Origin: a virus
Taxonomy: Duplodnaviria; Heunggongvirae; Uroviricota; Caudoviricetes
IMG/VR virus record: IMGVR_UViG_3300033148_004507
Length of the DNA: 64,000 nucleotides
Reading direction: 5' to 3' (one strand)
A model generated the notes under the pieces. The model had not been told where the DNA came from, did no database searches, and was given only the letters and a program-made list of their open reading frames with translations. The position numbers and the translations under genes were made by a program. Shown here piece by piece: positions 1-35,200 of this stretch (positions are counted from its first letter, which is position 1; every line of letters begins with the position of its first letter).

Positions 1-3000
1 TATTTACAAGGGTGCGAACCAAGACGTGAACGGCTCTGACGGTTTCCGAGATAATTCATATATAACGGGCAGTGCGGGAGCCAGTACAGACCATTATCCG
101 TTCATGGACTGGCCGATTGTAGTTCAAAGAATAAACGCTGATGCGGGGACAGACGATATTGTATATCTAGGGATTCATACATTCGATGGCTCTGGCAGTA
201 ACATAGTAATTGGCAGTATCACAAACTATACCTGGACGTTCACGGACATCGTACCTCAGACTTTGTATGATGTCTCGCCAATATATGATTTTTCGAGCCT
301 TGGGGATTATAATATCATGCTTACAGTAACGGATGGGAATGGTAATTATTCCTTTGATAATGTGACAATTACGGTAGACGATATGATTACTAATGCGGGG
401 CCAGACCAAATTTCCAAGAGGCTTGTTACCTTTGACGGCTCTGGTTCGATGGACGATGGTTCTATACAGAACTATACATGGTCTTGTACAAACTATGTTG
501 GATTTACCGACCTTTGGGGCGTAAATCCATCCTTTGATTTCAATGTGTCTGGGATATATTATGTCATGCTAACATGTGAGGATGATATTGGAAATCTAGG
601 ATATGATAATATGACGGTTACTATTATTATCATATCGCCTGTAGCTGATATGGGCCTCGACCAATCGTGGCTTAGAGAAATACATACTCTCAATGGCTCT
701 AGCTCTTACGATTCAGATGGGGATATTATAAATTATACATGGACTTTCATAGATGTCATACCACAGATATTATATGGCATAAATCCTCAATATGATTTCA
801 CGAATTTAGGTAATTTTGAAATTACGCTGGAGATTACAGATAATGATTGGAGAGTGGATACTGATACGGCATGGTTCAATATAAGTAATCAATTACCTAT
901 GGCTGATGCTGGCCCAGACCAGAATACTAAAAGGCTTGTCACATTTGACGGTTCAGGCTCAGATGATTCGGATGGCTTGATAGCTAATTACACTTGGACT
1001 TTCACCTATGATAGTACTCCGCAGGAACTCTGGGGGGTTTCACCAGTATTCGATTTTAACGTGAGTGGTATATACGATGTGATGTTGACAGTTATGGATA
1101 ATGATGGAGCTATGGCTTTTGATAATGTGACCATTACAATATCCATCTCTCCACCTGTAGCCAATGCAGGCACAGACCAAGGAACCACGAAAGGAACCTA
1201 TGTATTTGATGGTTTGAGTTCAGACGACTCGGATGGTTCAATCGTTAACTACACTTGGACATTCAATTATGACGGCCCCATACAGGAGCTTTGGGGTGTC
1301 TCTCCATCATTCGATTTCGATATTGATGGTATTTATACGGTTATGTTAAAGGTGACGGATGATGATTGGAGGTCAGATTATGATAACATGTCGGTAATAA
1401 TAAATTACGTAAACCCGATAGCTAATGCTGGCATTGACCAGGATACAAAGAGGCTTGTGATATTTGACGGTTCAGGCTCAGACGACCCTGATGGATTGAT
1501 AGCCAATTATACATGGACATTTAATTATGACGGCACTCCACATGAGCTTTGGGGGGTTTCACCTATGTTCGACTTTAACATCAGTGGGGTTTATGGTGTG
1601 GTGTTAATGGTTACAGATGATAATAATCTTATAGATTTTGATGACGTGACAATCACGATAAATATCGTGGAACCCATAGCAAATGCAGGTCTTGACCAAT
1701 CTGGATTTAAGAGGCTGTATTCTCTTGATGGTTCAGGCTCTTCTGATTCGGATGGGTTAATAGTCAATTATACATGGTCATTCATATACGATGGAGTGCC
1801 ACGTACACTCTATGGAATAAATCCGTCCTTTGAATTCAATATAACAGGAGATTATGAGATTACTTTAAATGTAACTGATGATGATTGGAGATGTGATGAT
1901 GATGTTATGTGGGTTCATATAACGAATCTTAATCCAATCGCCGATGCAGGTATGGATTATACTACAAAGAGGCTTGTCACACTTGATGGCTCTGGTTCTT
2001 CAGACCCCGATGGCTGGATTACGAATTACACCTGGAATTTCACATATGATGGTTCATTTGTGGAATTGTGGGGTGAGAATCCTGTATTCGATTTCAATAT
2101 AGGTGGTCTGTACGTTATAGTGCTTACGGTCACAGACAACGATAATTCAACATCATTCCACATCATGAGGCTCACTATCGTGATTCAGACACCCGTTGCC
2201 GATGCAGGTTTAGACCAGGTAGGGTATAAAAGAGAGTATTGGTTGAGTGGTTCAAGCTCATATGACTCTGACGGAATAATTGCGAACTACACCTGGAATT
2301 TCACATACGATGGCTCTCCTGTTGTGCTTGTGGGTATGAGTCCATCTTTCATCTTTAATATAACAGGAACTTATGAAATCACTCTAAATGTAACAGATGA
2401 TGATGGTAGGTATGCTACTGATACTATATTGATTGGTGTTAATAACAAGCTACCTGTTGCTGATGCGGGGCCAGATAGAATTGCGAAGCGTTTTGTAGCA
2501 TTTGATGGTTCAGGCTCTTCCGATTCAGACGGTTCAATAGCAAACTATACTTGGATATTCACATTTGATGGTATGCAGAGGGTACTGTGGGGTATAAGCC
2601 CAATCTTTGATTTCAACATCGGTGGCGTGTATGCTATTACATTACAAGTCACAGATGATGATGGTGATATAAGTGTGGATAGTTCAAAGATAACAACTAA
2701 TATATTATTCCCTTCAGCCAATGCAGGAATTAATCAAACGGGATTCAGTGGCGTGTATTGCCTAAACGGTTCTCTATCGTCAGACCTTGACGGTGTTATT
2801 GTAAATTATACATGGACATTCGATGATGGTGGGGGCAGGGTTCTGTTTGGCATATATCCTCAATACGATTTCCATAACACAGGGAGTCATGAGATTACAT
2901 TAGTTGTCAGAGATGACGATGCCAGGATGTCTGTGGACACGGTATATGTAGATATAATCGATAGGGGATACCCAATTGCTGATGCAGGTCTTAATCAGAC

Positions 3001-3382
3001 AACGAATGGTGTTGCTGTACTGGATGGTACGGGGTCAATAGATTCGGATGGCTCGATAATAAATTATACTTGGGAATTCACATATAATGGAAGCCAGGTT
3101 AACTTATGGGGCATTGCACCTCAGTTCAATTTCGCTATTGACGGCACTTACGATGTTGTACTGACTGTCACAGACAATGATGAACTAATTGGAATTGGCA
3201 ACGTAACCATAACAGCCAATAGCATGATTCCCGATGGTGGTGGGGATGGTGGCGATGGGGATGGCAACACAACGAATACAATTGATAAAACAACCCTGTT
3301 GGCGATATTCGTAATAGTGGTATTGGGTATTCTGGTATTGTTCATAGCCATGAGGAGAAGTGAGGCACGAATGTTGGATTGA
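1..3382 (+). CDS. PKD-repeat cell-surface protein, 5' partial (frame open to window edge), C-terminal TM anchor
   Basis: 1118-aa ORF; ~12 tandem ~86-aa modules each with DGSGSxDxDGxIxNYTWxF...VTDxD signature (PKD/Ig-like); Gly/Asp-rich linker then hydrophobic helix LLAIFVIVVLGILVLFIAM + RR tail; no N-terminal signal peptide at GTG26 so true start likely upstream. Confidence 0.8.
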   Translation, partial: IYKGANQDVNGSDGFRDNSYITGSAGASTDHYPFMDWPIVVQRINADAGTDDIVYLGIHTFDGSGSNIVIGSITNYTWTFTDIVPQTLYDVSPIYDFSSLGDYNIMLTVTDGNGNYSFDNVTITVDDMITNAGPDQISKRLVTFDGSGSMDDGSIQNYTWSCTNYVGFTDLWGVNPSFDFNVSGIYYVMLTCEDDIGNLGYDNMTVTIIIISPVADMGLDQSWLREIHTLNGSSSYDSDGDIINYTWTFIDVIPQILYGINPQYDFTNLGNFEITLEITDNDWRVDTDTAWFNISNQLPMADAGPDQNTKRLVTFDGSGSDDSDGLIANYTWTFTYDSTPQELWGVSPVFDFNVSGIYDVMLTVMDNDGAMAFDNVTITISISPPVANAGTDQGTTKGTYVFDGLSSDDSDGSIVNYTWTFNYDGPIQELWGVSPSFDFDIDGIYTVMLKVTDDDWRSDYDNMSVIINYVNPIANAGIDQDTKRLVIFDGSGSDDPDGLIANYTWTFNYDGTPHELWGVSPMFDFNISGVYGVVLMVTDDNNLIDFDDVTITINIVEPIANAGLDQSGFKRLYSLDGSGSSDSDGLIVNYTWSFIYDGVPRTLYGINPSFEFNITGDYEITLNVTDDDWRCDDDVMWVHITNLNPIADAGMDYTTKRLVTLDGSGSSDPDGWITNYTWNFTYDGSFVELWGENPVFDFNIGGLYVIVLTVTDNDNSTSFHIMRLTIVIQTPVADAGLDQVGYKREYWLSGSSSYDSDGIIANYTWNFTYDGSPVVLVGMSPSFIFNITGTYEITLNVTDDDGRYATDTILIGVNNKLPVADAGPDRIAKRFVAFDGSGSSDSDGSIANYTWIFTFDGMQRVLWGISPIFDFNIGGVYAITLQVTDDDGDISVDSSKITTNILFPSANAGINQTGFSGVYCLNGSLSSDLDGVIVNYTWTFDDGGGRVLFGIYPQYDFHNTGSHEITLVVRDDDARMSVDTVYVDIIDRGYPIADAGLNQTTNGVAVLDGTGSIDSDGSIINYTWEFTYNGSQVNLWGIAPQFNFAIDGTYDVVLTVTDNDELIGIGNVTITANSMIPDGGGDGGDGDGNTTNTIDKTTLLAIFVIVVLGILVLFIAMRRSEARMLD
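390..3230 (+). repeat. in-frame tandem DNA repeats, period ~258 bp, ~11 full units (PKD modules)
   Basis: P[IV]A[DN]AGxDQ ... NYTW ... VTDDD blocks recur at ~258-bp spacing (approx. 397, 643, 900, 1156, 1417, 1675, 1935, 2195, 2455, 2713, 2975). Confidence 0.7.
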
Positions 3383-3388
3383 TAAAAT

Positions 3389-3415
3389 GAGCAAAAACTA
3401 TTTGAGTATAATGGA
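3389..3415 (+). promoter_or_regulatory. BRE/TATA-like promoter variant (GCAAAAACTATTTGAGTATAAT)
   Basis: resembles the recurring GCAAAACTATTTATACT cassette; ~15-40 nt upstream of ATG 3428. Confidence 0.4.
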
Positions 3416-3427
3416 GTATTGAGAAGT

Positions 3428-3760
3428 ATGAAATCTAAAATATTAATCTGGGCGACTGTGGTGGCATCTGTATTTATAATATCGGTGATGCTCCTTCCCG
3501 CAGTCTTAGCAGACCCTACAAATGAAACGGCTGATGTAAATATTACAGACGATGATGATGATTGGTATGATTCGCAATGGGGTGGTGACACTGGCAATGA
3601 TGAATATACGGAGCCGATTGTAGATAATGGGACAAGGAGTGAGCCTGGGTTTTTCGATGACATCTGCGGGTCAACCTTCTGCACTACTTCATTTTTAGGT
3701 GCAGTCTGTATTCCCACATACTATATTCAGAGGAAGAAAAAGAAGGAGAGTAAGCTGTGA
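3428..3760 (+). CDS. small secreted acidic protein (signal peptide)
   Basis: N-terminal hydrophobic signal KILIWATVVASVFIISVMLLPAVLA; ATG 3428 in-frame within track ORF 3419..3760. Confidence 0.55.
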   Translation: MKSKILIWATVVASVFIISVMLLPAVLADPTNETADVNITDDDDDWYDSQWGGDTGNDEYTEPIVDNGTRSEPGFFDDICGSTFCTTSFLGAVCIPTYYIQRKKKKESKL

Positions 3761-5666: not shown

Positions 5667-5813
5667 ATGGTAGCAGAAGAGGGTGGCGTAAAACTAAAAT
5701 GTCCACGGAAATTGTGTTTGCACGTTTGGACGTTTCGGGGTAAAGCAAAGTTCTACACATCATGCCCAATTTGTAAGACATCAGTAAGGGTTAATCAGGA
5801 GAGGGTAGGATGA
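5667..5813 (+). CDS. 48-aa zinc-ribbon protein (not in ORF track)
   Basis: ATG 5667...TGA 5811-5813, frame-checked; CPRKLC ... CPICK; TTTTATATAAAG TATA-like box at 5637; stop overlaps HNH start (ATGA). Confidence 0.45.
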   Translation: MVAEEGGVKLKCPRKLCLHVWTFRGKAKFYTSCPICKTSVRVNQERVG

Positions 5814-6223
5814 AAAGGGGGTCGGCCCAATATAAAAAATGGCGAGAATCTGTGTTGATTAGGGATGAATATACTTGTCAACATTGTGGATTTAAACCTC
5901 ATATCTTAGATATTGGTATCGTTGCTCACCATATATTAAATTATAAAACTTACCCTCTATACAGGTATGACTTGAATAATGGGTTAACATTATGTCATAA
6001 ATGTCATAGGAGACAACACCCAACCTGTATGGGTTCTAAATTTATTCTATATAAAAAAGTTATTGAATTTAAGAATGGCAAATGTGGTGTAGATGTACCG
6101 TTGCATTGGGCGGGAAGAAAGATATTGGTGTATAAAGTAGGTAAATATGGTTTAACTCTACCTACAAAAGATGAATGTATAATGATAGATTGCGGAGATA
6201 GTTATCTGGAAGGTGTGGAATGA
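5810..6223 (+). CDS. HNH endonuclease
   Basis: CQHCG...VAHHI...NNGLTLCHKCH: CxxC-HH-N-CxxCH HNH signature. Confidence 0.8.
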   Translation: MKRGSAQYKKWRESVLIRDEYTCQHCGFKPHILDIGIVAHHILNYKTYPLYRYDLNNGLTLCHKCHRRQHPTCMGSKFILYKKVIEFKNGKCGVDVPLHWAGRKILVYKVGKYGLTLPTKDECIMIDCGDSYLEGVE

Positions 6224-6957
6224 TGAAAATCGATACCAAGATAACTAAAATCATCAAGGATTCTGAGGTCATCAGCATCACCAATGTCGGTAGCCACTTA
6301 TGGGGTATGAACCACGAAAACAGTGATGTAGATTATGGTCTTATCTACGTGGCCCCAAGTAGAAACATATTGCGTGGCAATGCCTTCACAGAATCTAAGC
6401 AGGTTGAAATAGGTAATAATGATTGGACAATCCATGAGCTTGGAAAGACTGTGAACATGCTAATGAAAGGCAATGTAAACTATGTCTGGATTGTAACATC
6501 GCCGTTGTCTTTACTATCTACTCTTTATATCGAAGAATTAAAAAAATTATATTTGAATAATATGTCTGCTAACATTTATCACAATATCAAAGGATTGGCA
6601 AAACACAATTACAAGAAATATTTGGTTGAGGGGAGGCTAGCTGATGGTGAACCATATTCGAATCTTGATAAGAAACGAAAGATAATCATTCGCACTCTTA
6701 AATTCGGTATTAATCTACTGGATGGTAATGGGATAATATATGAGCCAGTGGAGGGCGAAGTTAACGATAATCTAGTTAGACAATTCATGGATAATCTGGA
6801 AAATGCATATGAGCATACATCATTGCCAGAGAATCCAGACCGTGAAAAATATTATGATTATTTGGAAGATGTAAGAAGATACTTGTGTCAGCGACCACTC
6901 CGTGACTGGCATTGGTCAGGAGATGACTCTGAGAACTCAGACTCATGCGTTGATTAG
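6220..6957 (+). CDS. Pol-beta superfamily nucleotidyltransferase (minimal-NTase/KNTase-like, 245 aa); last ~25 codons lie inside the IscB-element left end
   Basis: GSHLWGMNHENSDVDYG = GSx9-11DxD NTase motif; size and helical C-terminal half resemble KNTase-type enzymes. Confidence 0.6.
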   Translation: MMKIDTKITKIIKDSEVISITNVGSHLWGMNHENSDVDYGLIYVAPSRNILRGNAFTESKQVEIGNNDWTIHELGKTVNMLMKGNVNYVWIVTSPLSLLSTLYIEELKKLYLNNMSANIYHNIKGLAKHNYKKYLVEGRLADGEPYSNLDKKRKIIIRTLKFGINLLDGNGIIYEPVEGEVNDNLVRQFMDNLENAYEHTSLPENPDREKYYDYLEDVRRYLCQRPLRDWHWSGDDSENSDSCVD

Positions 6958-8339
6958 GAGGCGACAAGAAACATGAAAACTATGCAAAAGTTAGAAGGGC
7001 GAGATACATACACACCTACGGATGCTCCACAAGTCCGTAGCCACTGTGATTCTGTGATTAAACATGACTGCGAGGTAGGTGAAGTGTTACAGGATTTAAA
7101 AACCCTTTCTAACAACTCCGATGTGGACTTACTCCAGCATACAGGAGGGCTTAAGGCCACTGTGTATGCATATGTGCTAAACAAGAACGGGAAACCACTG
7201 ATGCCCTGCAAGCCTGCCAAAGCAAGGCATTTGTTGAAGGAAGGCAGGGCAGAGGTGGTCAATAGGACTCCCTTCACGATTCGCTTATTATGGGATTGTG
7301 AAGATAATGTGAAACCAATAACACTTGGCATCGATGCTGGATATGGCAAAGTTGGTTTTAGTGCCGTATCTGATAAGAAAGAATTGGTGTCTGGGGAACT
7401 GACTTTAAGGAAAGGCATCTCCAAACTGATAGAGCAGAGAAGTAACTATAGAAGGACACGAAGGAACAAACTCTGGCATCGGCCACCTAGATTCCTTAAC
7501 AGAGCTAAACATAAAGGCTGGCTTGCACCTAGCATCCAACACAAGCTTGACAGCCATGTAAGACTTATCGAACAGATGAAATCAATCTTGCCGATAACAA
7601 ATGTTATTGTCGAGGTTGCGAATTTTGACATCCAGAAGATAAAGAATCCAGACATTAAAGGAGTCGAATACCAACAAGGGGAGCAGATGGGCTTTTGGAA
7701 TGTTGGAATGTTCGAGAGTATGTCTTACACAGAGACAACCATACTTGTCAGCACTGTAAGGGTAAAAAGAAAGATAAGATATTACAGGTGCATCACATCA
7801 ATAGCAAGAAAGAGGGTGCTACAGATAGGCCAGAAGAGTTATTGACAGTCTGTAAGACCTGCCATGATGGGCATCATGATGGTATCGATATAATACCAAT
7901 GAAGGAAATCAAGAACTTCAAGCCAGAGACTTTCATGACGATGGTTCACTGGAAGCTCACAGAATTATTGGATTGTGAACACACGTTTGGTTATATCACA
8001 AAAACCAATAGAATTAAGCAAGGTCTTGAAAAGAGCCATGTCAATGATGCATTTATCATTGCGGGTGGGGCAAAGCAGGAACGGTGCTTGCCACATGATG
8101 TCAAGCAAGTAAGACGAAACAATAGGTCAATACAGATGAATCGAAAGGGTTACAAGCTAGCAATAAGAAGAAAAAGATATAAATTACAACCAAATGATTT
8201 AGTAAGGTTTGAGAGGGTCAAACGCCGAGTCAAAGGAGTACACTGTTATGGTTCAAGAGCAATATTAGATAATAAGAAATCAGTTGCAATAACTAAAATA
8301 AAGTTGATATGCTATGGTAAGGGGATATGTTATGTGTAA
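6880..8339 (+). mobile_element. IS200/IS605-type non-autonomous element carrying iscB (copy 1); left boundary approximate
   Basis: ~95 nt upstream of ATG 6973 (TCAxCGACCAC ... TCTGAGxAxTCAGACTxxTGCGTTGATTAGGAGGC) plus the entire ORF are repeated at 13230..14553; homology ends exactly at the stop codons; no tnpA present. Confidence 0.7.
6973..8339 (+). pseudogene. iscB: IscB (OMEGA RNA-guided nuclease, Cas9 ancestor), frameshifted by an 8-bp tandem duplication
   Basis: PLMP domain (NGKPLMPCKPAKARHL); RuvC-I ITLGIDAGYGKVGFSAV; Arg-rich bridge helix RSNYRRTRRNKLWHRPPRF; RuvC-II ITNVIVEVANFD; HNH CQHCKGK...QVHHIN...CKTCHDGHH; RuvC-III HVNDAFIIAGG. TGGAATGT duplicated at 7696-7703/7704-7711 splits the ORF into 6973..7845 and 7695..8339; removing one copy restores ...FWNVREYVLHRDNHTCQHC... 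in frame. Confidence 0.85.
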
Positions 8340-13229: not shown

Positions 13230-14553
13230 GAGCTTGGTAAGGGTGAGTCAACGACCACACAGAACAGAAATGGTCTGGGGGCGAGTCTGAGCAATCAGAC
13301 TTGTGCGTTGATTAGGAGGCAATGAAAAGAATGAAAACCATGCAGAAGTTAGACGGGAGAGATACATACACACCTACGGATGCTCCACAAGTCCGTAGCA
13401 ACTGTGATTCTGTGATTAAACATGACTGCGAGGTAGGTCAAGTGTTACAGAGTTTGAAAACCCCGTCTAACAACTCCGATGTGGACTTACTCCAGCATAC
13501 AGGAGGGCATAATGCCACTATGTATGCATATGTTATAAATAAGAATGGAAAACCACTGATGCCCTGCAAACCTGCCAAAGCAAGGCATCTATTGAAGCAA
13601 GGTAGAGCCAAAGTAATCAACAGGAAGCCATTTACAATCCGACTATTATGGGATTGTGAAGATAATGTGCAACCGATTACGCTAGGCATCGATGCAGGCT
13701 ATAGCAAAGTTGGTTTCAGTGCCGTGTCTGAGAGTAAGGAATTGATGTCTGGGGAGCTAACATTACGAAAAGGCATCAATAAACTCATCGAGCAGAAAAG
13801 CAACTATAGAAGAACAAGACGGAATAAACTTTGGCATCGCCCACCGAGATTCCTGAACAGAGCCAAACCAAAAGGTCGCCTACCTCCGAGCATCCAACAT
13901 AAGCTCGACAGCCATATTAGGCTTGTCGAACAAATGAAAGCAATCCTGCCGATAACAAATGTTATTGTCGAGGTTGCGAATTTTGACATCCAGAAGATAA
14001 AGAATCCAGACATTAAAGGAGTCGAATACCAACAAGGGGAGCAGATGGGCTTTTGGAATGTAAAACCTGTCATGAAGAGCATCATGCGGGTATTGATATA
14101 ATCTCAGCAGTGGCAATCAAGAACTTCAAGCCAGAAACCTTTATGACGGTGGTTAATTGGAAGCTTACAGAACTATTAAATTGTGAGCATACCTTTGGCT
14201 ACATCACGAAGCATAATAGGATTAAGCAAGGTCTTGCAAAGAGTCATGTAAATGATGCGTTTATAATTGCAAGAGGTCATAGTCAGGGGCGATGCAAATA
14301 TTATGAAGTCAATCAAACGAGGAGAAATAATAGAAGCATACAATTGAATCGAAAAGGCTATAAACCATCTATCAGAAGAAAAAGATATAAGCTCCAATCC
14401 AATGACTTAATTAGAGATTCACAAAACAACACTGTTCTGAGAGCAAAGGGTGTATGCTCATATGGGCGGTCAATAAAATTGGAAGATGGGAGATATACAA
14501 ATGTTAAAAATATAAAATTAATATGTTATGGTAAAGGGATATGCTATATATGA
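13230..14553 (+). mobile_element. IS200/IS605-type iscB element (copy 2), left boundary approximate
   Basis: direct repeat of 6880..8339 (by-eye ~85% identity); preceded by a 200-nt noncoding stretch 13121..13321. Confidence 0.7.
13322..14553 (+). pseudogene. iscB: IscB copy 2, inactivated by ~139-bp out-of-frame deletion removing the N-terminal half of the HNH domain
   Basis: same PLMP/RuvC-I/bridge/RuvC-II as copy 1, then ...FWNV | KTCHEEHH...HVNDAFIIARG; CQHCKGK...QVHHIN segment absent; ORF split into 13322..14101 and 14053..14553 at the same TGGAATGT site as copy 1. Confidence 0.8.
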
Positions 14554-15052: not shown

Positions 15053-15300
15053 AAGGTGTTGAAGCTGTAGTCAAATCCATGCTCTATGCACTGGTTGGTG
15101 TTATGGTAGTTATGGTTGTTATGTCATTCTACTTCATGTATTGCGCATATCGGGCATTTCAAATCGGAACCGATATTGGCAACTTTGTTGGTGGGGCATT
15201 GTTGGTACTGTCTGGGGCCATATTACTTGGGTCAATTGGAATCCAGCAATTTGTGTTCCCGTTGTTGGAGATTAAAACAGATGGTGGTGAAAAAGAATGA
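15049..15300 (+). CDS. small membrane protein
   Basis: 83 aa, 2-3 hydrophobic helices. Confidence 0.5.
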   Translation: MKGVEAVVKSMLYALVGVMVVMVVMSFYFMYCAYRAFQIGTDIGNFVGGALLVLSGAILLGSIGIQQFVFPLLEIKTDGGEKE

Positions 15301-15773
15301 AAATCCCAGATAGAATAAACTATAGTGCCTTGAACTTTCCGATATGTAATTTCGTGGTTCTTGAGGAGGCTGAGAGGTTGATAATACCTGATTACCAGAG
15401 AGATTATATCTGGTCTGATACTCAGAAGGGGTTGTTGATAGATAGCATCTTTAAAAGCATACCGATTGGCAATATATTCCTTAACGAGAGGGGTGGCAGT
15501 CCAGCCTATGAAATTATTGATGGTCAGCAAAGACTTACTACACTATTTAAGTTCATGAATGATGAGTTTGCTTACCAGGATGTGTACTACAGTGAATTGC
15601 CAGATAAGTACACTGCGAGGATAAGTCATTTCGTAGTCCAGACTTATATCACTTACTACACAGATGTTAAGGACATCCTCAGATTGTATTATGTATTGAA
15701 TTGGGCAGGGACACAACATAATGTGGAGGAGATGATTAAGCTTAAGAGGCAGGCGGGTGAAGAGGATGGATGA
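15297..15773 (+). CDS. DUF262 (ParB-like, GmrSD N-terminal-type) domain protein, stand-alone
   Basis: IIPDYQRDYIWSDTQKGLLIDSIFKSIPIGNIFL...EIIDGQQRLTTLFKF: canonical PxYQRxYxW and DGQQR motifs; no DUF1524/HNH nuclease partner domain. Confidence 0.8.
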   Translation: MKIPDRINYSALNFPICNFVVLEEAERLIIPDYQRDYIWSDTQKGLLIDSIFKSIPIGNIFLNERGGSPAYEIIDGQQRLTTLFKFMNDEFAYQDVYYSELPDKYTARISHFVVQTYITYYTDVKDILRLYYVLNWAGTQHNVEEMIKLKRQAGEEDG

Positions 15774-30355: not shown

Positions 30356-30775
30356 TTATTTTCCGCCCTTGTTTGTGACGATTCTCTTTTTTATGTATGG
30401 ACAGCCCCTATTGATGATATACAAATCATCTCTTCCCCAATAATCATTTTTACATTGAGTATTATACAAAGGTTTGTGTGTGAAAATCAAAAAATTTTCA
30501 ACATCTCTAATTAATAATTTGGTGATTCTTTGATAATCTGATTTCTCAATATACCCTAACCAGAAAGATAATCCTTGTGTATTCATATCAAAATCTCGTA
30601 GGTTATTTTTAATTTCAGCAACCACATCCATGTGGTAGGCAATACCCATGTAGATTATTCCTCGCCCTCTTTGAAAAGCATAGAAATATGCATCCTCATA
30701 TTCTCTCAATTTACTATATGGTACTTTCACCCAATTAAGTGTCATTCCCTTTTTTGGTTTCACTTTTATTTTCAT
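30356..30775 (-). CDS. hypothetical protein (minus strand)
   Basis: start chosen at MKIKVKPKK preceded (in minus sense) by GGTGAGAGGTGG SD; track ORF extends to 30871. Confidence 0.45.
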   Translation of the reverse strand: MKIKVKPKKGMTLNWVKVPYSKLREYEDAYFYAFQRGRGIIYMGIAYHMDVVAEIKNNLRDFDMNTQGLSFWLGYIEKSDYQRITKLLIRDVENFLIFTHKPLYNTQCKNDYWGRDDLYIINRGCPYIKKRIVTNKGGK

Positions 30776-30921
30776 ATTCCACCTCTCACCGATATATGGA
30801 TGAGAAGCGAAAGGCATTTGGGGAAAGAGAATGGCTTGAATAATTAACAATAATAATTCTCCGCCCCTCACTTCTCAACATATGCATAATTTCGCACAAT
30901 ATAAATGTTTTTGACCATTTA

Positions 30922-31680
30922 TTAAGGCAACTCTTTTCTACAGCTCCCACAGAAATTGTAACCATTTGGATTGGTATCTCCGCAATACGGGCAAAACTTG
31001 TCTATCTTATCGTCTCCAGGTACTAAATTATCATTGTCGTCTATCTTATCATCATCGTACTCTTCCTCTGGTAATCCATATTTTGCAATAAGCTCTGCAC
31101 CAACTGAAACAAGAATTCCACCTATGACACATAGCACCCATCCATATCTTAAGCCTAGTATACTCATTGCTTCGCCAAATGAAATGTCATTAGAAAGAGA
31201 AACAATGTAGAATCCATGTATTAAAACACCTTGGGAAATCAAAGCGATTAAGAATCCTCCAAGATATAGCAATCTACACACATAATATTCTCTTACGGAT
31301 AGAACAATCATGAATAGTATGGCACATAATCCTGCAATCATTGGTAAAAAGTCAAGATACCAGATGTCAAAATAAAGACCAATATTCCATCCAGTAATCC
31401 CACCATAAATTCCATTATAAAATGGCTCAGACATCCCTCTAAAGAATAATATGATTCCAAAGAAGCCAACAGCAGTGCCTATCACAAGAAAAATTGGAGT
31501 TTCTCTATCACCAAAAACTATAGTCTCTTCTTTGACAGACTCATCAGATACAATCATTAAAAACCCAAATATACATAAAAGAAATGATATAGGAAAACTA
31601 ATGTCTACCCACCAGAATAAAAGGCATATTACTGCTAATATAAACATGAATGACCCGATTATACCCAGTTTAATCCTCAT
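30922..31680 (-). CDS. polytopic membrane protein with C-terminal zinc ribbon
   Basis: 6-7 TM helices; C-term FCPYCGDTNPNGYNFCGSCRK; GGTGA SD upstream. Confidence 0.6.
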   Translation of the reverse strand: MRIKLGIIGSFMFILAVICLLFWWVDISFPISFLLCIFGFLMIVSDESVKEETIVFGDRETPIFLVIGTAVGFFGIILFFRGMSEPFYNGIYGGITGWNIGLYFDIWYLDFLPMIAGLCAILFMIVLSVREYYVCRLLYLGGFLIALISQGVLIHGFYIVSLSNDISFGEAMSILGLRYGWVLCVIGGILVSVGAELIAKYGLPEEEYDDDKIDDNDNLVPGDDKIDKFCPYCGDTNPNGYNFCGSCRKELP

Positions 31681-31694
31681 CTCTTCACCGTAAC

Positions 31695-32324
31695 CTAGTC
31701 ATCAAACCTCTTATTTCGTTTATTGACTGCATATAATGGAACTATAATTGCAGGTAATATCGCCATAGTACACACTTCCCCACCAGTATCTTCTCCACCA
31801 GTATCTCCACTAGAACCTCCTCCTGTGTCATCTCCTGTAATAACCACAGTATCATCACCGTTATCCACGACAGAATCCTTGATTATCTGGATAGTGTAGG
31901 TGTATTCCTTAGTGGTTGCAATATCCCATTCAGACCACACACCTTCTTCTGATGCAATTACTTCGATTGTAGCTATATGACTTCCAATATCTACTTGGAA
32001 TTCACTAGGCACAGTTACTTCCCAGGAGAAAGTATAGCTATTCCCTGCTTCTACAATAACACTCGTTTGACTGGATGTATAGCCAGTCATAGCTAAATTC
32101 CAATCAAAAAATAGGTGTACTCTCTCAACCCTCAATGATTCAGAATATGTGTTTGTCAGTACGTATTTAAAAGTATACGCATAATTATTCTTGATACCCT
32201 CTGTTGGCTCTAGTGTTCCAGATACTTCCCATTTATCATATCCCTCAACTGGAATGGCTATTATAATCATTCCTAGGATTATTAGCCAAACTACAATGAA
32301 TCCATATTTTCCCACGATTCTCAC
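31695..32324 (-). CDS. secreted/surface-anchored protein (signal peptide, Gly/Asp/Thr linker, C-terminal TM)
   Basis: N-term FIVVWLIILGMIIIAIPV, DTGGGSSGDTGGEDTGG linker, MAILPAIIVPLYAV + NKRNKR tail; GTG start. Confidence 0.55.
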   Translation of the reverse strand: MRIVGKYGFIVVWLIILGMIIIAIPVEGYDKWEVSGTLEPTEGIKNNYAYTFKYVLTNTYSESLRVERVHLFFDWNLAMTGYTSSQTSVIVEAGNSYTFSWEVTVPSEFQVDIGSHIATIEVIASEEGVWSEWDIATTKEYTYTIQIIKDSVVDNGDDTVVITGDDTGGGSSGDTGGEDTGGEVCTMAILPAIIVPLYAVNKRNKRFDD

Positions 32325-33419: not shown

Positions 33420-35200
33420 TGGACTCCTCTTCTGAAGTTGGAAAAAAGTTGTTATTTTGTTGGAAAAAAGTTGTTTTTTACACCATAATTTTGAATTATA
33501 TGGAAATAATCTGTAAATTCACATCCAGTTTAAATGCTATAAGTTTCATAAGATTATATCGCAGTCAAGAAGATTGGTGGCCTCTCGGTGAATGTCGTAT
33601 ACTATATCGAGGCTTCTTGACTGCTCTAAATCATTAAGGTGATTCCTGTAAACGAAGATGATGATGATTATGACAGCAAAACCATAAACGGCAAATGGCT
33701 ACGAAAATGTTATGCTTTACCTATTCAAACTCAACGAAAGTTGACAGATTACCAGAATGACTTAAATAATGTCAATCTGCATAGAATTAAAGTGAGGCCA
33801 GATTATTTGCGTAACCTGACCTCTGGAGCTGATAAGATGTGTTCAACAAAGTTATCAACCCCGAAGAAAGCTATGGATGAAGAGACAAATAAAAGTTTCC
33901 ATACGTTAGTCTATATGAATCCAACAGGCTTCGCTGAGGGGGAAAGTGAGCCAGGTATAAGAATGACAGTTGTAGGGAGTGAATACCCTACCTTTTATCA
34001 AAGTTTTTGGACTGAGCCAGACTTTAGTAACCCGACCAATGACAATCCGATGAGAGCATCCGAATTCTTGAGTAAACTGAATTTGGATAACGTATTAGAT
34101 GCCATTGGTCAGAAATATGGAAATAAAAAATGGCATTTCAGGTATCCTCCTGAAGCCATGATTAAGGCTTTGGTGTTCAAGTACATCAAAGGTTTGAGGC
34201 ACGATACACGCCTAGTAAGATACTTAAAAGCCCATCCCGAAGAGGCGAAATTACTAGGATTCATTGAAGTAAAAGGTGAATTGAAAATACCGAGCCAACA
34301 GACATTCAATCATTTTGTCTTGGCGAGGTTGAGGAATGAAGGATTATATGACATATTTGATAGCCTTGTATTAGAACTCAAGGATAAGATGAGTATGCTC
34401 GGTCTGCAACTGGGTAAAACTGTGTCTGTTGATTCAACGCCTTTATCGAGTATGAAGAATGACAAAGATGCTAAATACAATCCGCATTATGACATTAAAG
34501 GATATAAAGTACATAATGTGATAGATGCAGATTTCTTCCTTCCACTTGCCTTAAATTTCACTACTGCGATAGATGGGGATTCGCCACAGTATCTCCCATT
34601 GTTAGACAGATTACACACGATGGGATTTGATTTTGGGACGATTCTTGCAGATGGAGCTTATGCTTCTCTTGAACATTTTGCAATTGTACATCGGTATTAC
34701 AGAGCCAAAGCCATTTTCAAATTGAAGAAAAATAATCGTATAAGAAAAGAAGGAACATTGAAAGGAATTAAGAAGAGATATGAATCATTATGGAAAAAAG
34801 ATGGATACAAGCCAGATGCAGGAATAGATTACATGCTAGCATTCCTTTATTTTCAAGGTGATATTAAAGCGGTTGGAAGCTATTATCATAACAAGCATTT
34901 TGTGGACTGGACAAATAATTACGATGAGAAAAAGAAGGAATTTAATCAAAGGGCAGGAATAGAGGCGTTTCATGGGCATTTAAAGTATCAGATGAACCTT
35001 GAGATATTTCTTGATAAGAAAGGCATTAGAAACGCTGAAATGCACGTTCAATTGACGTATATCTCATTACTGTGCGTGGCTCTGTGCAGAGTTCAGCATG
35101 GAGTTACTGAGGGTCTTGTGAATGTGAAGTGTCTTGTTTAGGCACTTCTTCTTTATTTTTTTAAAAAATGCAAAGATTAAAGAATAGATTAAGTATTTCC
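33420..35200 (+). mobile_element. IS4/IS5-superfamily insertion sequence (boundaries approximate, terminal IRs not confidently identified)
   Basis: single DDE transposase ORF; upstream tandem TTGGAAAAAAGTTGTT x2 at 33447-33485. Confidence 0.5.
33639..35141 (+). CDS. DDE transposase, IS4/IS5 superfamily
   Basis: N-term FRYPPEAMIKALVFKYIKGL; catalytic VSVDSTP (D), ILADGAYAS (D), NQRAGIEAFHGHLK (R-x3-E-x6-K). Confidence 0.8.
   Translation: MIPVNEDDDDYDSKTINGKWLRKCYALPIQTQRKLTDYQNDLNNVNLHRIKVRPDYLRNLTSGADKMCSTKLSTPKKAMDEETNKSFHTLVYMNPTGFAEGESEPGIRMTVVGSEYPTFYQSFWTEPDFSNPTNDNPMRASEFLSKLNLDNVLDAIGQKYGNKKWHFRYPPEAMIKALVFKYIKGLRHDTRLVRYLKAHPEEAKLLGFIEVKGELKIPSQQTFNHFVLARLRNEGLYDIFDSLVLELKDKMSMLGLQLGKTVSVDSTPLSSMKNDKDAKYNPHYDIKGYKVHNVIDADFFLPLALNFTTAIDGDSPQYLPLLDRLHTMGFDFGTILADGAYASLEHFAIVHRYYRAKAIFKLKKNNRIRKEGTLKGIKKRYESLWKKDGYKPDAGIDYMLAFLYFQGDIKAVGSYYHNKHFVDWTNNYDEKKKEFNQRAGIEAFHGHLKYQMNLEIFLDKKGIRNAEMHVQLTYISLLCVALCRVQHGVTEGLVNVKCLV

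What the first reader, a model, noticed from the sequence alone, without database searches (positions are those of the whole stretch)
6973..8339. IscB (OMEGA, Cas9-ancestor) gene inactivated by an 8-bp tandem duplication
The ORF pair 6973..7845 and 7695..8339 together gives the full IscB architecture. That is a PLMP domain (KPLMPCKPAKARHL), RuvC-I (LGIDAGYGKVGFSAV), an Arg-rich bridge helix (RRTRRNKLWHRPPRF), RuvC-II (VIVEVANFD), an inserted HNH (CQHC…HH…CKTCH) and RuvC-III (HVNDAFIIAGG). The two frames meet exactly where TGGAATGT occurs twice in tandem (7696-7703 and 7704-7711). Deleting one copy gives a continuous …GFWNVREYVLHRDNHTCQHC… reading frame. This is a recently decayed IS200/605-family RNA-guided nuclease inside an archaeal mobile element with a virus-like gene layout.
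Basis: partly seen in the sequence, partly recalled or inferred. Interest (0 to 1): 0.75.

Follow-up and report, generated by a model that had tools for sequence, protein, structure and literature searches.

The report
Broken IscB nuclease gene with guide RNA
This is an ordinary mobile-element gene for a small RNA-guided DNA cutter (IscB, a relative of Cas9) that was recently knocked out by an 8-base duplication; its guide-RNA gene still looks intact, and a second copy 6 kb away is broken at exactly the same spot.

Summary
TGGAATGT occurs twice in tandem at 7696-7711. ORF 6973..7845 and ORF 7695..8339 meet there, and removing one copy gives one continuous frame.

The repaired protein is an IscB:
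- Pfam RRXRR 216 bits plus HNH.
- PDB IscB chains at E about 1e-37.
- Predicted fold matches IscB-omegaRNA complexes at E 1e-27.
- Intact relatives (up to 82% identical) carry a single TGGAATGT.

1. An Rfam HEARO/omegaRNA gene lies at 6887-7132. The first 63 "codons" of the ORF are therefore guide-RNA scaffold. The real start is probably GTG 7162, giving 389 aa when repaired.
2. A second omegaRNA-IscB copy lies at 13247-14553. It has lost most of its HNH-coding DNA and is frameshifted at the same nucleotide.
3. The 115 nt directly 5' of both lesions are 100% identical, although the copies are old paralogues (dS 0.8-2.6). That is a gene-conversion tract, so the two lesions are linked.

Outside the lesions both copies keep the family's conserved residues, so the decay is recent. 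No TnpA was found in the window, so the elements are non-autonomous. Archaeal origin is only weakly supported. This is a known kind of element, of low to moderate interest.

The parts
6220..6957 (+). Upstream RlaP-like nucleotidyltransferase gene. Its last ~23 codons and its stop codon lie inside the omegaRNA scaffold. It is the likely source of the read-through transcript that makes the omegaRNA.
   Evidence: Pfam RlaP 51.7 bits. Coordinates. The need for read-through transcription in IscB elements is from Meers et al..
6871..6886 (+). Inferred guide segment of omegaRNA copy 1: the 16 nt of flanking DNA directly 5' of the scaffold (GTAAGAAGATACTTGT).
   Evidence: Similarity between the copies and to L001/L003 starts at the scaffold, and the flanks are unrelated. 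The guide has no other match in the window. The 16-nt length is assumed from known IscB systems.
6887..7132 (+). omegaRNA scaffold (Rfam HEARO, RF02033), copy 1.
   Evidence: 90.3 bits against a gathering score of 83, full model 1-211. The score is comparable to the omegaRNAs next to intact IscB genes, 95.2 and 91.9 bits.
7162..7703 (+). iscB 5' part in its authentic frame, from the probable GTG start: PLMP, RuvC-I, bridge helix, RuvC-II (residues 1-181).
   Evidence: Pfam RRXRR 216-218 bits. Alignment to OgeuIscB and other solved IscBs begins at residue 2-3. The same codon is ATG in copy 2.
7696..7711 (+). 8-bp tandem duplication TGGAATGT x2, the frameshifting lesion.
   Evidence: Intact relatives have a single copy.
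7712..8339 (+). iscB 3' part, now in the -1 frame: HNH, RuvC-III and the beta-rich C-terminal (TID-like) region. The stop codon is at 8337-8339.
   Evidence: Pfam HNH 33 bits. KSHVNDAFIIA aligns to the RuvC-III motif KDHYLDAYCIA of OgeuIscB. C-terminal beta strands appear in the model.
7589..7703 (+). 115-nt tract 100% identical to copy 2 (13947-14061), ending at the lesion. This is a gene-conversion tract.
   Evidence: Flanking identity is 82% (5') and 74% (3'). dS between the copies is 0.83-2.6. See also the sliding identity profile.
13231..13246 (+). Inferred guide of omegaRNA copy 2 (AGCTTGGTAAGGGTGA).
13247..13490 (+). omegaRNA scaffold (HEARO), copy 2.
   Evidence: 104.8 bits.
13520..14061 (+). 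Second iscB copy, 5' part (ATG start; PLMP to RuvC-II), ending at the deletion junction.
   Evidence: tblastn 89.6% aa identity to copy 1. Pfam RRXRR 217 bits.
14059..14553 (+). Second iscB copy, 3' part in the -1 frame (tail of HNH from CKTCH, RuvC-III, C-terminal region). It follows a deletion of 142 nt relative to intact genes, or 150 nt relative to copy 1.

Best explanation
Bases 6887-8339 are a non-autonomous IS200/IS605-type OMEGA element. It has no transposase gene of its own. It consists of an omegaRNA gene (scaffold 6887-7132; guide supplied by the 16 nt of flank at 6871-6886) followed by iscB (GTG 7162 to stop at 8339).

In intact relatives, read-through transcription from the co-oriented upstream gene yields the omegaRNA. 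IscB (PLMP, split RuvC, bridge helix, inserted HNH, C-terminal target-interacting domain) binds it and cuts DNA matching the guide next to a TAM. That target is the empty donor joint left after excision, so the element is copied back. This mechanism is inferred from the characterised family and is not shown here.

In this copy, an 8-bp tandem duplication after codon 181 shifts the frame. Translation from 7162 would give 181 authentic residues plus 46 junk residues and stop at 7845. That product lacks HNH, RuvC-III and the C-terminal domain, so the nuclease is dead while the omegaRNA remains structurally intact.

A paralogous element at 13247-14553 is broken at the same nucleotide by loss of most of the HNH-coding DNA, and it is also frameshifted. 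The two lesions are linked by an ectopic gene-conversion event, seen as a 115-nt perfectly identical tract abutting the break. Both lesions are evolutionarily recent.
For: Identity as IscB:
- Pfam RRXRR 216 bits and HNH 31.6 bits.
- phmmer hits to solved IscBs at E 6e-37 to 2.5e-34. The alignments place GIDAG, VEVA, VHHI and SHVNDA on the RuvC-I, RuvC-II, HNH and RuvC-III motifs of OgeuIscB.
- AlphaFold model (pLDDT 71.6), Foldseek top hits IscB-omegaRNA-DNA complexes at E 1.2e-27, TM 0.51-0.60.

omegaRNA:
- HEARO matches above the gathering score at 6887-7132 and 13247-13490. Scores resemble those next to intact genes.
- Copies 1 and 2 differ by a compensatory A-U to C-G change in the long stem (read from the alignments).

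The lesion is derived:
- The listed best homologues are mostly ~450 aa and cover the query (~8000 candidates scored at E<=1e-10); the nine aligned run uninterrupted through GFWNVREYVLHRDNHTCQHC.
- Their DNA has one TGGAATGT.

The lesion is recent:
- 1 of 103 conserved columns deviates in copy 1, and 1 outside the deletion in copy 2.
- dN/dS is 0.07-0.17 on both sides of the lesion, the same as between intact genes.

Linkage of the two lesions:
- Identical 115-nt run at 7589-7703 = 13947-14061, against 82% and 74% identity in the flanks.

Non-autonomous and mobile:
- No Y1 transposase among 80 ORFs scanned.
- In the related contig L003, an intact IscB sits between two genes that are adjacent in the window.
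- Element architecture and dependence on upstream transcription follow Meers et al. 2023.
Against: - Raw reads cannot be inspected. The duplication could be an assembly error or a minority variant.
- No expression or activity data exist for the RNA or the protein fragments.
- Exact transposon ends and the TAM are not defined. Boundaries rest only on where similarity between copies starts and stops.
- The order of events (duplication, conversion, deletion) is not resolved.
- A TnpA or an intact IscB could lie outside the 64-kb window.
Confidence: 0.8

Rival explanations
1. The gene is intact in the real genome. The 8-bp duplication would then be an assembly or consensus artefact, or a minority variant.
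For: It is the only defect in an otherwise pristine gene. The exact ORF products are not on record in the public gene collection, so no independent assembly confirms it.
Against: An 8-bp non-homopolymer tandem duplication is not a typical sequencing error (general knowledge). Other long ORFs in the window are uninterrupted, for example 1118 aa and 730 aa. The second copy carries a different lesion at the same nucleotide, with a conversion tract abutting it, which is hard to produce by mis-assembly.
Confidence: 0.1
2. Full-length IscB is still made by programmed -1 ribosomal frameshifting, or by transcriptional slippage, near 7690-7704.
For: Both copies need the same -1 shift. In both, the -1 frame opens just upstream, at 7659 and 14017.
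Against: There is no X XXY YYZ slippery heptamer in either overlap zone. The region has no significant local structure (z -1.4 and -1.7). Copy 2 would still lack the HNH catalytic core. No protein in 5.8 billion shares the frameshifted tail, so this is not a conserved arrangement. Intact relatives need no shift.
Confidence: 0.02
3. This is a naturally split IscB. ORF1 (PLMP to RuvC-II) and ORF2 (from TTG 7695: HNH, RuvC-III, C-terminal domain) would be translated separately and reassemble on the omegaRNA.
For: ORF2 begins upstream of the whole HNH domain. An SD-like GGGGAG (7678-7683) lies 11 nt before TTG 7695. Both halves retain all conserved residues. Engineered split Cas9 can reassemble on its guide RNA (own knowledge).
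Against: The SD-like sequence and TTG are simply part of the conserved coding sequence, present in intact genes too. ORF1 would carry 46 junk residues. No comparable split or frameshifted relative exists in the databases. Retention of conserved residues is fully explained by the lesion being recent.
Confidence: 0.04
4. The two co-located lesions are scars of site-specific DNA breakage at the RuvC-II/HNH junction, for example cleavage by a competing RNA-guided or homing nuclease, followed by end-joining or microhomology repair. On this view they are not random mutations spread by conversion.
For: The breakpoint is the same in both paralogues. The scars look like break repair: a tandem duplication with TT microhomology and a deletion with TGT microhomology. 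The conversion tract lies on one side of the break. An unrelated MAG copy (L086) has a stop codon and a T-rich patch two codons downstream.
Against: The two omegaRNA guides do not match the site. The window has no CRISPR array and the site has no hairpin. One mutation plus gene conversion plus a later deletion explains the data without a nuclease. The L086 coincidence has roughly a 1-in-10 chance, given 5 stops in 164 loci.
Confidence: 0.1

Closest known systems
IscB-omegaRNA (OMEGA) systems of IS200/IS605-family elements, e.g. OgeuIscB (PDB 7utn, 7xht, 8csz)
   Same: It has the same domain order: PLMP, RuvC-I, Arg-rich bridge helix, RuvC-II, HNH, RuvC-III, beta-rich C-terminus. The catalytic motifs align to OgeuIscB. 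A HEARO/omegaRNA lies directly upstream and overlaps the annotated ORF start. The upstream gene is co-oriented and there is no nearby TnpA, as in most IscB loci.
   Different: The gene is interrupted by an 8-bp duplication. The protein is compact (about 389 aa against 496 aa) and only about 20% identical to OgeuIscB in the structural alignment. It resides in an uncharacterised virus-like element.
Intact metagenomic homologues P0001-P0003 (78-82% identical), carried on virus-like contigs L001 and L003
   Same: They share the same omegaRNA (92-97% nt identity over most of the scaffold in 60-nt windows), the same length and the same conserved residues. L003 also shares four flanking genes with the window.
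   Different: They have a single TGGAATGT and an open frame. They sit at different insertion sites.
IsrB (the HNH-less relative of IscB, e.g. DtIsrB, PDB 8dmb)
   Same: Copy 2 (13520-14553) has lost most of the HNH domain, which superficially resembles IsrB. The model also matches IsrB (TM 0.71 normalised to the target).
   Different: The deletion in copy 2 is out of frame and leaves the CKTCH..HH tail of HNH. It is a broken IscB, not an IsrB.
Phage- and virus-borne IscB genes (e.g. Clostridium phage c-st; at least 463 IMG/VR loci)
   Same: These are IscB genes inside viral genomes, sometimes with two copies per contig.
   Different: The best identity is only 45-55%. All 80 best viral loci are uninterrupted.

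Membership tests
IscB (OMEGA RNA-guided nuclease) | N-terminal PLMP/RRXRR region with RuvC-I and an Arg-rich bridge helix | tested here: met
   PF14239 RRXRR at 216-218 bits (cutoff 25), covering the full model 2-174. It aligns to residues 4-120 of solved IscBs.
IscB (OMEGA RNA-guided nuclease) | Split RuvC with catalytic Asp (RuvC-I), Glu (RuvC-II) and His/Asp (RuvC-III) | tested here: met
These columns are invariant or nearly invariant in 61 homologues. That these are the catalytic residues is from memory of the OgeuIscB literature.
IscB (OMEGA RNA-guided nuclease) | HNH domain inserted between RuvC-II and RuvC-III | tested here: met
   PF01844 at 31.6-33 bits (cutoff 21.4) at repaired residues 193-237. 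VHHI aligns to YHHV of OgeuIscB.
IscB (OMEGA RNA-guided nuclease) | C-terminal beta-rich target/TAM-interacting domain | tested here: inconclusive
   The model shows beta strands at 372-451 with pLDDT 82-93, and whole-chain fold matches to IscB. The sequence alignment to solved IscBs stops at about residue 321, and I did not superpose this domain on its own.
IscB (OMEGA RNA-guided nuclease) | Cognate omegaRNA (HEARO) encoded directly upstream on the same strand | tested here: met
   RF02033 at 90.3 bits (6887-7132) and 104.8 bits (13247-13490), gathering score 83.
IscB (OMEGA RNA-guided nuclease) | Uninterrupted reading frame (a functional gene) | tested here: not met
   The 8-bp duplication shifts the frame after codon 181. 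Copy 2 has a 142/150-nt deletion plus a frameshift. The locus is therefore filed as a decayed member.
IscB (OMEGA RNA-guided nuclease) | omegaRNA-guided, TAM-dependent double-strand DNA cleavage | not testable with these tools
   This needs biochemistry with the repaired protein.
IS200/IS605-family transposon | TnpA (Y1 HUH transposase) in the element or nearby | tested here: not met
   No Y1_Tnp hit among 80 window ORFs and no Y1 N-terminal motif by regex. Most IscB loci lack TnpA, so this indicates a non-autonomous element rather than non-membership.
IS200/IS605-family transposon | Defined ends with subterminal hairpins and a transposon-adjacent motif | tested here: inconclusive
   Similarity among four elements starts at the omegaRNA scaffold and ends at or just after the stop codon. 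No hairpin or TAM consensus could be extracted.
IS200/IS605-family transposon | Evidence of mobility (occupied versus empty sites) | tested here: met
   This holds at gene-order level only. In L003 an intact omegaRNA-IscB lies between the PKD gene and the homologue of window ORF 3419..3760. In the window these genes are adjacent. The DNA is too diverged for a nucleotide-exact empty site.
Programmed -1 frameshift gene | Slippery heptamer plus a downstream structure in the overlap zone | tested here: not met
   No X XXY YYZ motif in 7600-7845 or 13960-14101. Folding z-scores are -1.4 and -1.7.
IsrB (for copy 2) | In-frame absence of the HNH domain with RuvC intact | tested here: not met
   The deletion is 142 nt relative to intact genes, so it is out of frame, and it leaves part of HNH.

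The most novel reading that the evidence does not exclude
The RuvC-II/HNH junction of this IscB clade may be a recurrent, site-specific breakpoint. Two old paralogues in one genome are broken there, and an unrelated MAG copy carries a stop codon two codons away. This could reflect either targeted cleavage of iscB genes by a competing nuclease or defence system, or a functional split or HNH-less derivative that still uses the intact omegaRNAs. On this reading the decay is not random.
Probability: 0.07. Interest if true: 0.6.

Novelty: new member of a known kind. Interest (0 to 1): 0.22.

Why it matters
The locus mainly serves as a clean, well-annotated example. It is a compact (about 389 aa) IscB with its omegaRNA in a dark-matter, virus-like element, caught just after inactivation.

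It has three practical uses:
2. It shows how gene callers, and a sequence-only reader, absorb the omegaRNA into the ORF.
3. The pair of paralogues documents ectopic gene conversion between OMEGA elements within one genome, with lesions co-located at the conversion boundary. This bears on how such elements decay or homogenise.

None of this changes current understanding of OMEGA systems.

Tried and rejected
- **Programmed frameshift.** No slippery site and no local structure. Rejected.
- **Self-targeting by the elements' own guides.** The 16- and 20-nt flanks have no significant second match. A 5-mismatch match of the copy-2 flank at 7746 is at chance level.
- **CRISPR arrays or tandem repeats.** Nothing relevant in the window.
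- **Footprint of the window's DDE transposon (33639..35141).** No terminal inverted repeats or target duplication could be defined, so its TSD length is unknown. Not informative.
- **Finding the source contig or the same allele elsewhere.**
  - Exact-product look-ups for ORF1, ORF2 and copy-2 ORF1: none on record.
  - Exact DNA pattern in IMG/VR: 0 matches.
  - Frameshifted tail against 5.8 billion proteins: nothing.
- **Nucleotide-exact empty site.**
  - Flanking genes have no relatives in IMG/VR.
  - Only one weak relative in the metagenome collection.
  - L003 flanks are too diverged at DNA level.
- **Host assignment.**
  - The phrog_2319-like protein gives only 25% matches to bacterial jumbo phages.
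  - The nearest genome-borne IscB relatives are mostly, but not only, in archaeal MAGs.
  - The look-up of the Thorarchaeota homologue's contig failed.
Full report
**1. Observation**

The sequence reads ...ATGGGCTTT TGGAATGT TGGAATGT TCGAGAG..., with the two 8-mers at 7696-7703 and 7704-7711. ORF 6973..7845 (290 aa) and ORF 7695..8339 (214 aa) overlap there, in frames that differ by -1. Removing one 8-mer gives a single ORF of 452 aa counted from ATG 6973.

About one tandem 8-mer is expected by chance in 64 kb, and three loci are seen. The repeat alone is therefore not significant. Its position at the frame junction, and its absence from relatives, are what make it meaningful.

**2. Identity of the gene**

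- The repaired protein hits Pfam RRXRR (PF14239, 216 bits, whole model) and HNH (PF01844, 31.6 bits).
- phmmer against PDB finds only IscB, IsrB and Cas9 chains. The best are TbaIscB, OgeuIscB and others at E 6e-37 to 2.5e-34.
- Those alignments place LGIDAG, IVEVANF, VHHI and KSHVNDAF on the RuvC-I, RuvC-II, HNH and RuvC-III motifs of OgeuIscB.
- An AlphaFold model built on 62 sequences has mean pLDDT 71.6. It matches IscB-omegaRNA-DNA complexes first, at Foldseek E 1.2e-27 and TM 0.51-0.60. IsrB follows, then compact Cas9d and other Cas9s.
- The protein database holds about 8000 relatives. The closest, P0001-P0003, are 78-82% identical and intact, with G-F-W-N invariant across the lesion site.
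- The DNA of those genes (L001-L004) has one CTGGAATGT(T/A)CGAGAG. The duplication is therefore a derived lesion.

**3.

Rfam finds two full-length HEARO (RF02033) matches, at 6887-7132 (90.3 bits) and 13247-13490 (104.8 bits). The gathering score is 83. HEARO is the IscB omegaRNA (Meers et al. 2023, read). The omegaRNAs next to the intact genes in L001 and L003 score 95.2 and 91.9 bits, so copy 1's RNA is as good as theirs.

Comparing the two window copies in the cmscan alignment shows a compensatory change in the long stem. Copy 1 has GAAGGG...CCCUUUC and copy 2 has GACGGG...CCCCGUC. The RNAs have therefore been under structural constraint.

It follows that the first 63 codons of ORF 6973..7845 are omegaRNA scaffold read as protein:
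- AlphaFold gives them pLDDT of about 30 and no secondary structure.
- Solved IscB chains align from residue 2-3 of a protein starting at GTG 7162.
- That codon is ATG in the second copy.

The real IscB is thus about 389 aa (7162..8339 when repaired).

The upstream RlaP-like gene (6220..6957) runs about 23 codons into the scaffold. This fits the published rule that IscB omegaRNAs are made by read-through from a co-oriented upstream gene, with the guide lying in the flank. On that basis the inferred guide is 6871-6886.

**4. A second copy, broken at the same nucleotide**

ORFs 13322..14101 and 14053..14553 form a second IscB, with its own omegaRNA. The DNA alignment shows that similarity between the copies starts at the scaffold's first bases and stops at the stop codon. 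Each element is therefore about 1.3-1.45 kb: 6887-8339 and 13247-14553.

Copy 2 lacks the 150 nt that correspond to 7701-7850 of copy 1. That is 142 nt relative to an intact gene, and the junction has TGT microhomology. The deletion removes most of HNH and shifts the frame by -1.

The copies are old paralogues:
- dS is 0.83 in the 5' part and 2.6 in the 3' part.
- omega is 0.07-0.09, the same as between the intact genes of L001 and L003.
- Each copy is about as far from the other as from copies on other contigs.

Yet the 115 nt immediately 5' of the break are identical (7589-7703 = 13947-14061). Identity is 82% in the next 300 nt upstream and 74% downstream of the deletion. Even at 90% local identity such a run has a probability of about 5e-6 (my arithmetic). 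This is a gene-conversion tract ending at the lesion, so the two lesions are linked.

The most economical history has three steps: one duplication, its transfer to the other paralogue by conversion, then a 150-nt deletion in copy 2. That length is a multiple of three relative to the duplication-bearing state. A break at this site repaired from the other copy is an alternative. I cannot resolve the order of events. The tract is slightly closer to L003, as copy 2's flanks are, which weakly suggests copy 2 was the donor.

**5. Age and functional state**

At 103 columns that are at least 95% conserved among 112 full-length homologues, copy 1 deviates once. Copy 2 also deviates once outside its deletion. 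Intact homologues have a median of 1 deviation. Together with the low dN/dS on both sides of the lesion, this shows both inactivations are recent.

Translation from 7162 would yield 181 authentic residues plus 46 out-of-frame residues. HNH, RuvC-III and the C-terminal domain would be missing. Since the RuvC active site needs all three segments, the product should be inactive (inference).

- Programmed -1 frameshifting is rejected. There is no slippery heptamer and no significant structure.
- A split two-polypeptide enzyme cannot be excluded formally, because an SD-like GGGGAG lies 11 nt before TTG 7695. That sequence is simply conserved coding sequence, and no comparable frameshifted protein exists among 5.8 billion.
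- An assembly artefact cannot be excluded without reads.

**6. Context**

- 88 of 107 non-overlapping ORFs of at least 70 aa are on the + strand.
- Only 6 Pfam families are hit among 80 ORFs: NADAR, RNA_ligase, GmrSD_N, DSPc, YopX and a phosphatase domain (Tc-R-P, polymorphic-toxin DSP-PTPase). No Y1 transposase is present.
- Elsewhere in the window there are a PKD-repeat protein, an SPFH protein, a DDE transposase, and a phrog_2319-like protein found in jumbo phages.
- The window contains no tRNA genes.

The layout is virus-like, but no hallmark capsid or terminase gene was recognised.

Contig L003 is a relative of this element, sharing four genes at 52-64% identity. It carries an intact IscB between two genes that are adjacent in the window. 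This gives gene-order evidence that the IscB family moves within this lineage.

IscB genes are common in viral contigs. There are at least 463 IMG/VR loci and 39 GenBank phage records. The 80 best viral loci are all uninterrupted.

The nearest named relatives (66-70%) are in MAGs of Thorarchaeota, Thermoplasmata/Thermoplasmatota and Micrarchaeota, plus one Bacteroidota. 'Archaeal' is therefore plausible but not shown.

**7. An unexplained coincidence**

Among 164 related loci, five carry in-frame stops. One of them, L086 from a Micrarchaeota MAG, has its stop at E183, two codons after the duplication site, within a T-rich replaced patch. With so few events this could be chance, roughly 1 in 10. 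It keeps alive the idea that the RuvC-II/HNH junction is a preferred breakpoint.

**8. Verdict**

The finding is real and the core interpretation is right. This is a recently inactivated member of a well-known family (IscB/OMEGA, IS200/IS605). The corrections are:
- the first 63 codons of the ORF are the omegaRNA scaffold;
- the protein is about 389 aa;
- there is a second copy;
- the two lesions are linked by gene conversion;
- the host domain is unproven.

Novelty: a new member of a known kind. Interest is low to moderate (0.22).

Noticed in passing
window 6973-7161 (and 13322-13519): The reading frame through the omegaRNA scaffold is open in both window copies and in nearly all ~450-aa database homologues. 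A conserved AGGAGG plus ATG lies inside the scaffold, so gene callers routinely add about 63 spurious N-terminal residues. AlphaFold predicts these residues as disordered (pLDDT ~30).
   Followed up: partly
window 5810-6223: A stand-alone 137-aa HNH-motif ORF (weak PF01844; 38% identity to the IscB HNH region) lies two genes upstream of the IscB element.
   Followed up: no
window 33639-35141: A 500-aa DDE_Tnp_1 (IS4/IS5-like) transposase ORF with a DUF772 domain. No terminal inverted repeats or target-site duplication could be defined.
   Followed up: partly
window 7044-7059 and 13402-13417: A perfect tandem CTGTGATT x2 lies inside both omegaRNAs. It is conserved in relatives and forms part of the HEARO stems. 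It is not a lesion.
   Followed up: partly
L003 6620-8063 versus window 3382-3419: The related contig L003 shares the PKD protein and three other genes with the window. It has an intact omegaRNA-IscB between two genes that are adjacent in the window, an insertion polymorphism at gene-order level. L003 also carries an 86-aa Cas12f1-like_TNB (TnpB) fragment.
   Followed up: partly
L086 1545-1560: The IscB in a Micrarchaeota MAG contig has an in-frame TAA at the position of E183, followed by a T-rich patch (TAATTTTTTATT). This is two codons 3' of the window's duplication site.
   Followed up: partly
L008 and L081 (one IMG/VR contig); P0029 and P0038 (one 97-kb contig labelled Thorarchaeota): Two IscB copies on a single virus-like or MAG contig recur in relatives, as in this window.
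   Followed up: no
window 15297-15773: A 158-aa ORF with a DGQQR motif. It is probably the GmrSD_N/DUF262 hit of the Pfam sweep, and would be a truncated or stand-alone defence-type domain just downstream of IscB copy 2.
   Followed up: no
window 30356-32324: A block of three minus-strand ORFs (171-252 aa) lies in an otherwise almost entirely plus-strand, purine-rich window (A+G 58%).
   Followed up: no
window 26-3382: A 1118-aa protein made of at least 12 PKD repeats. Its homologue in L003 is the gene whose 3' end runs into that contig's omegaRNA.
   Followed up: no
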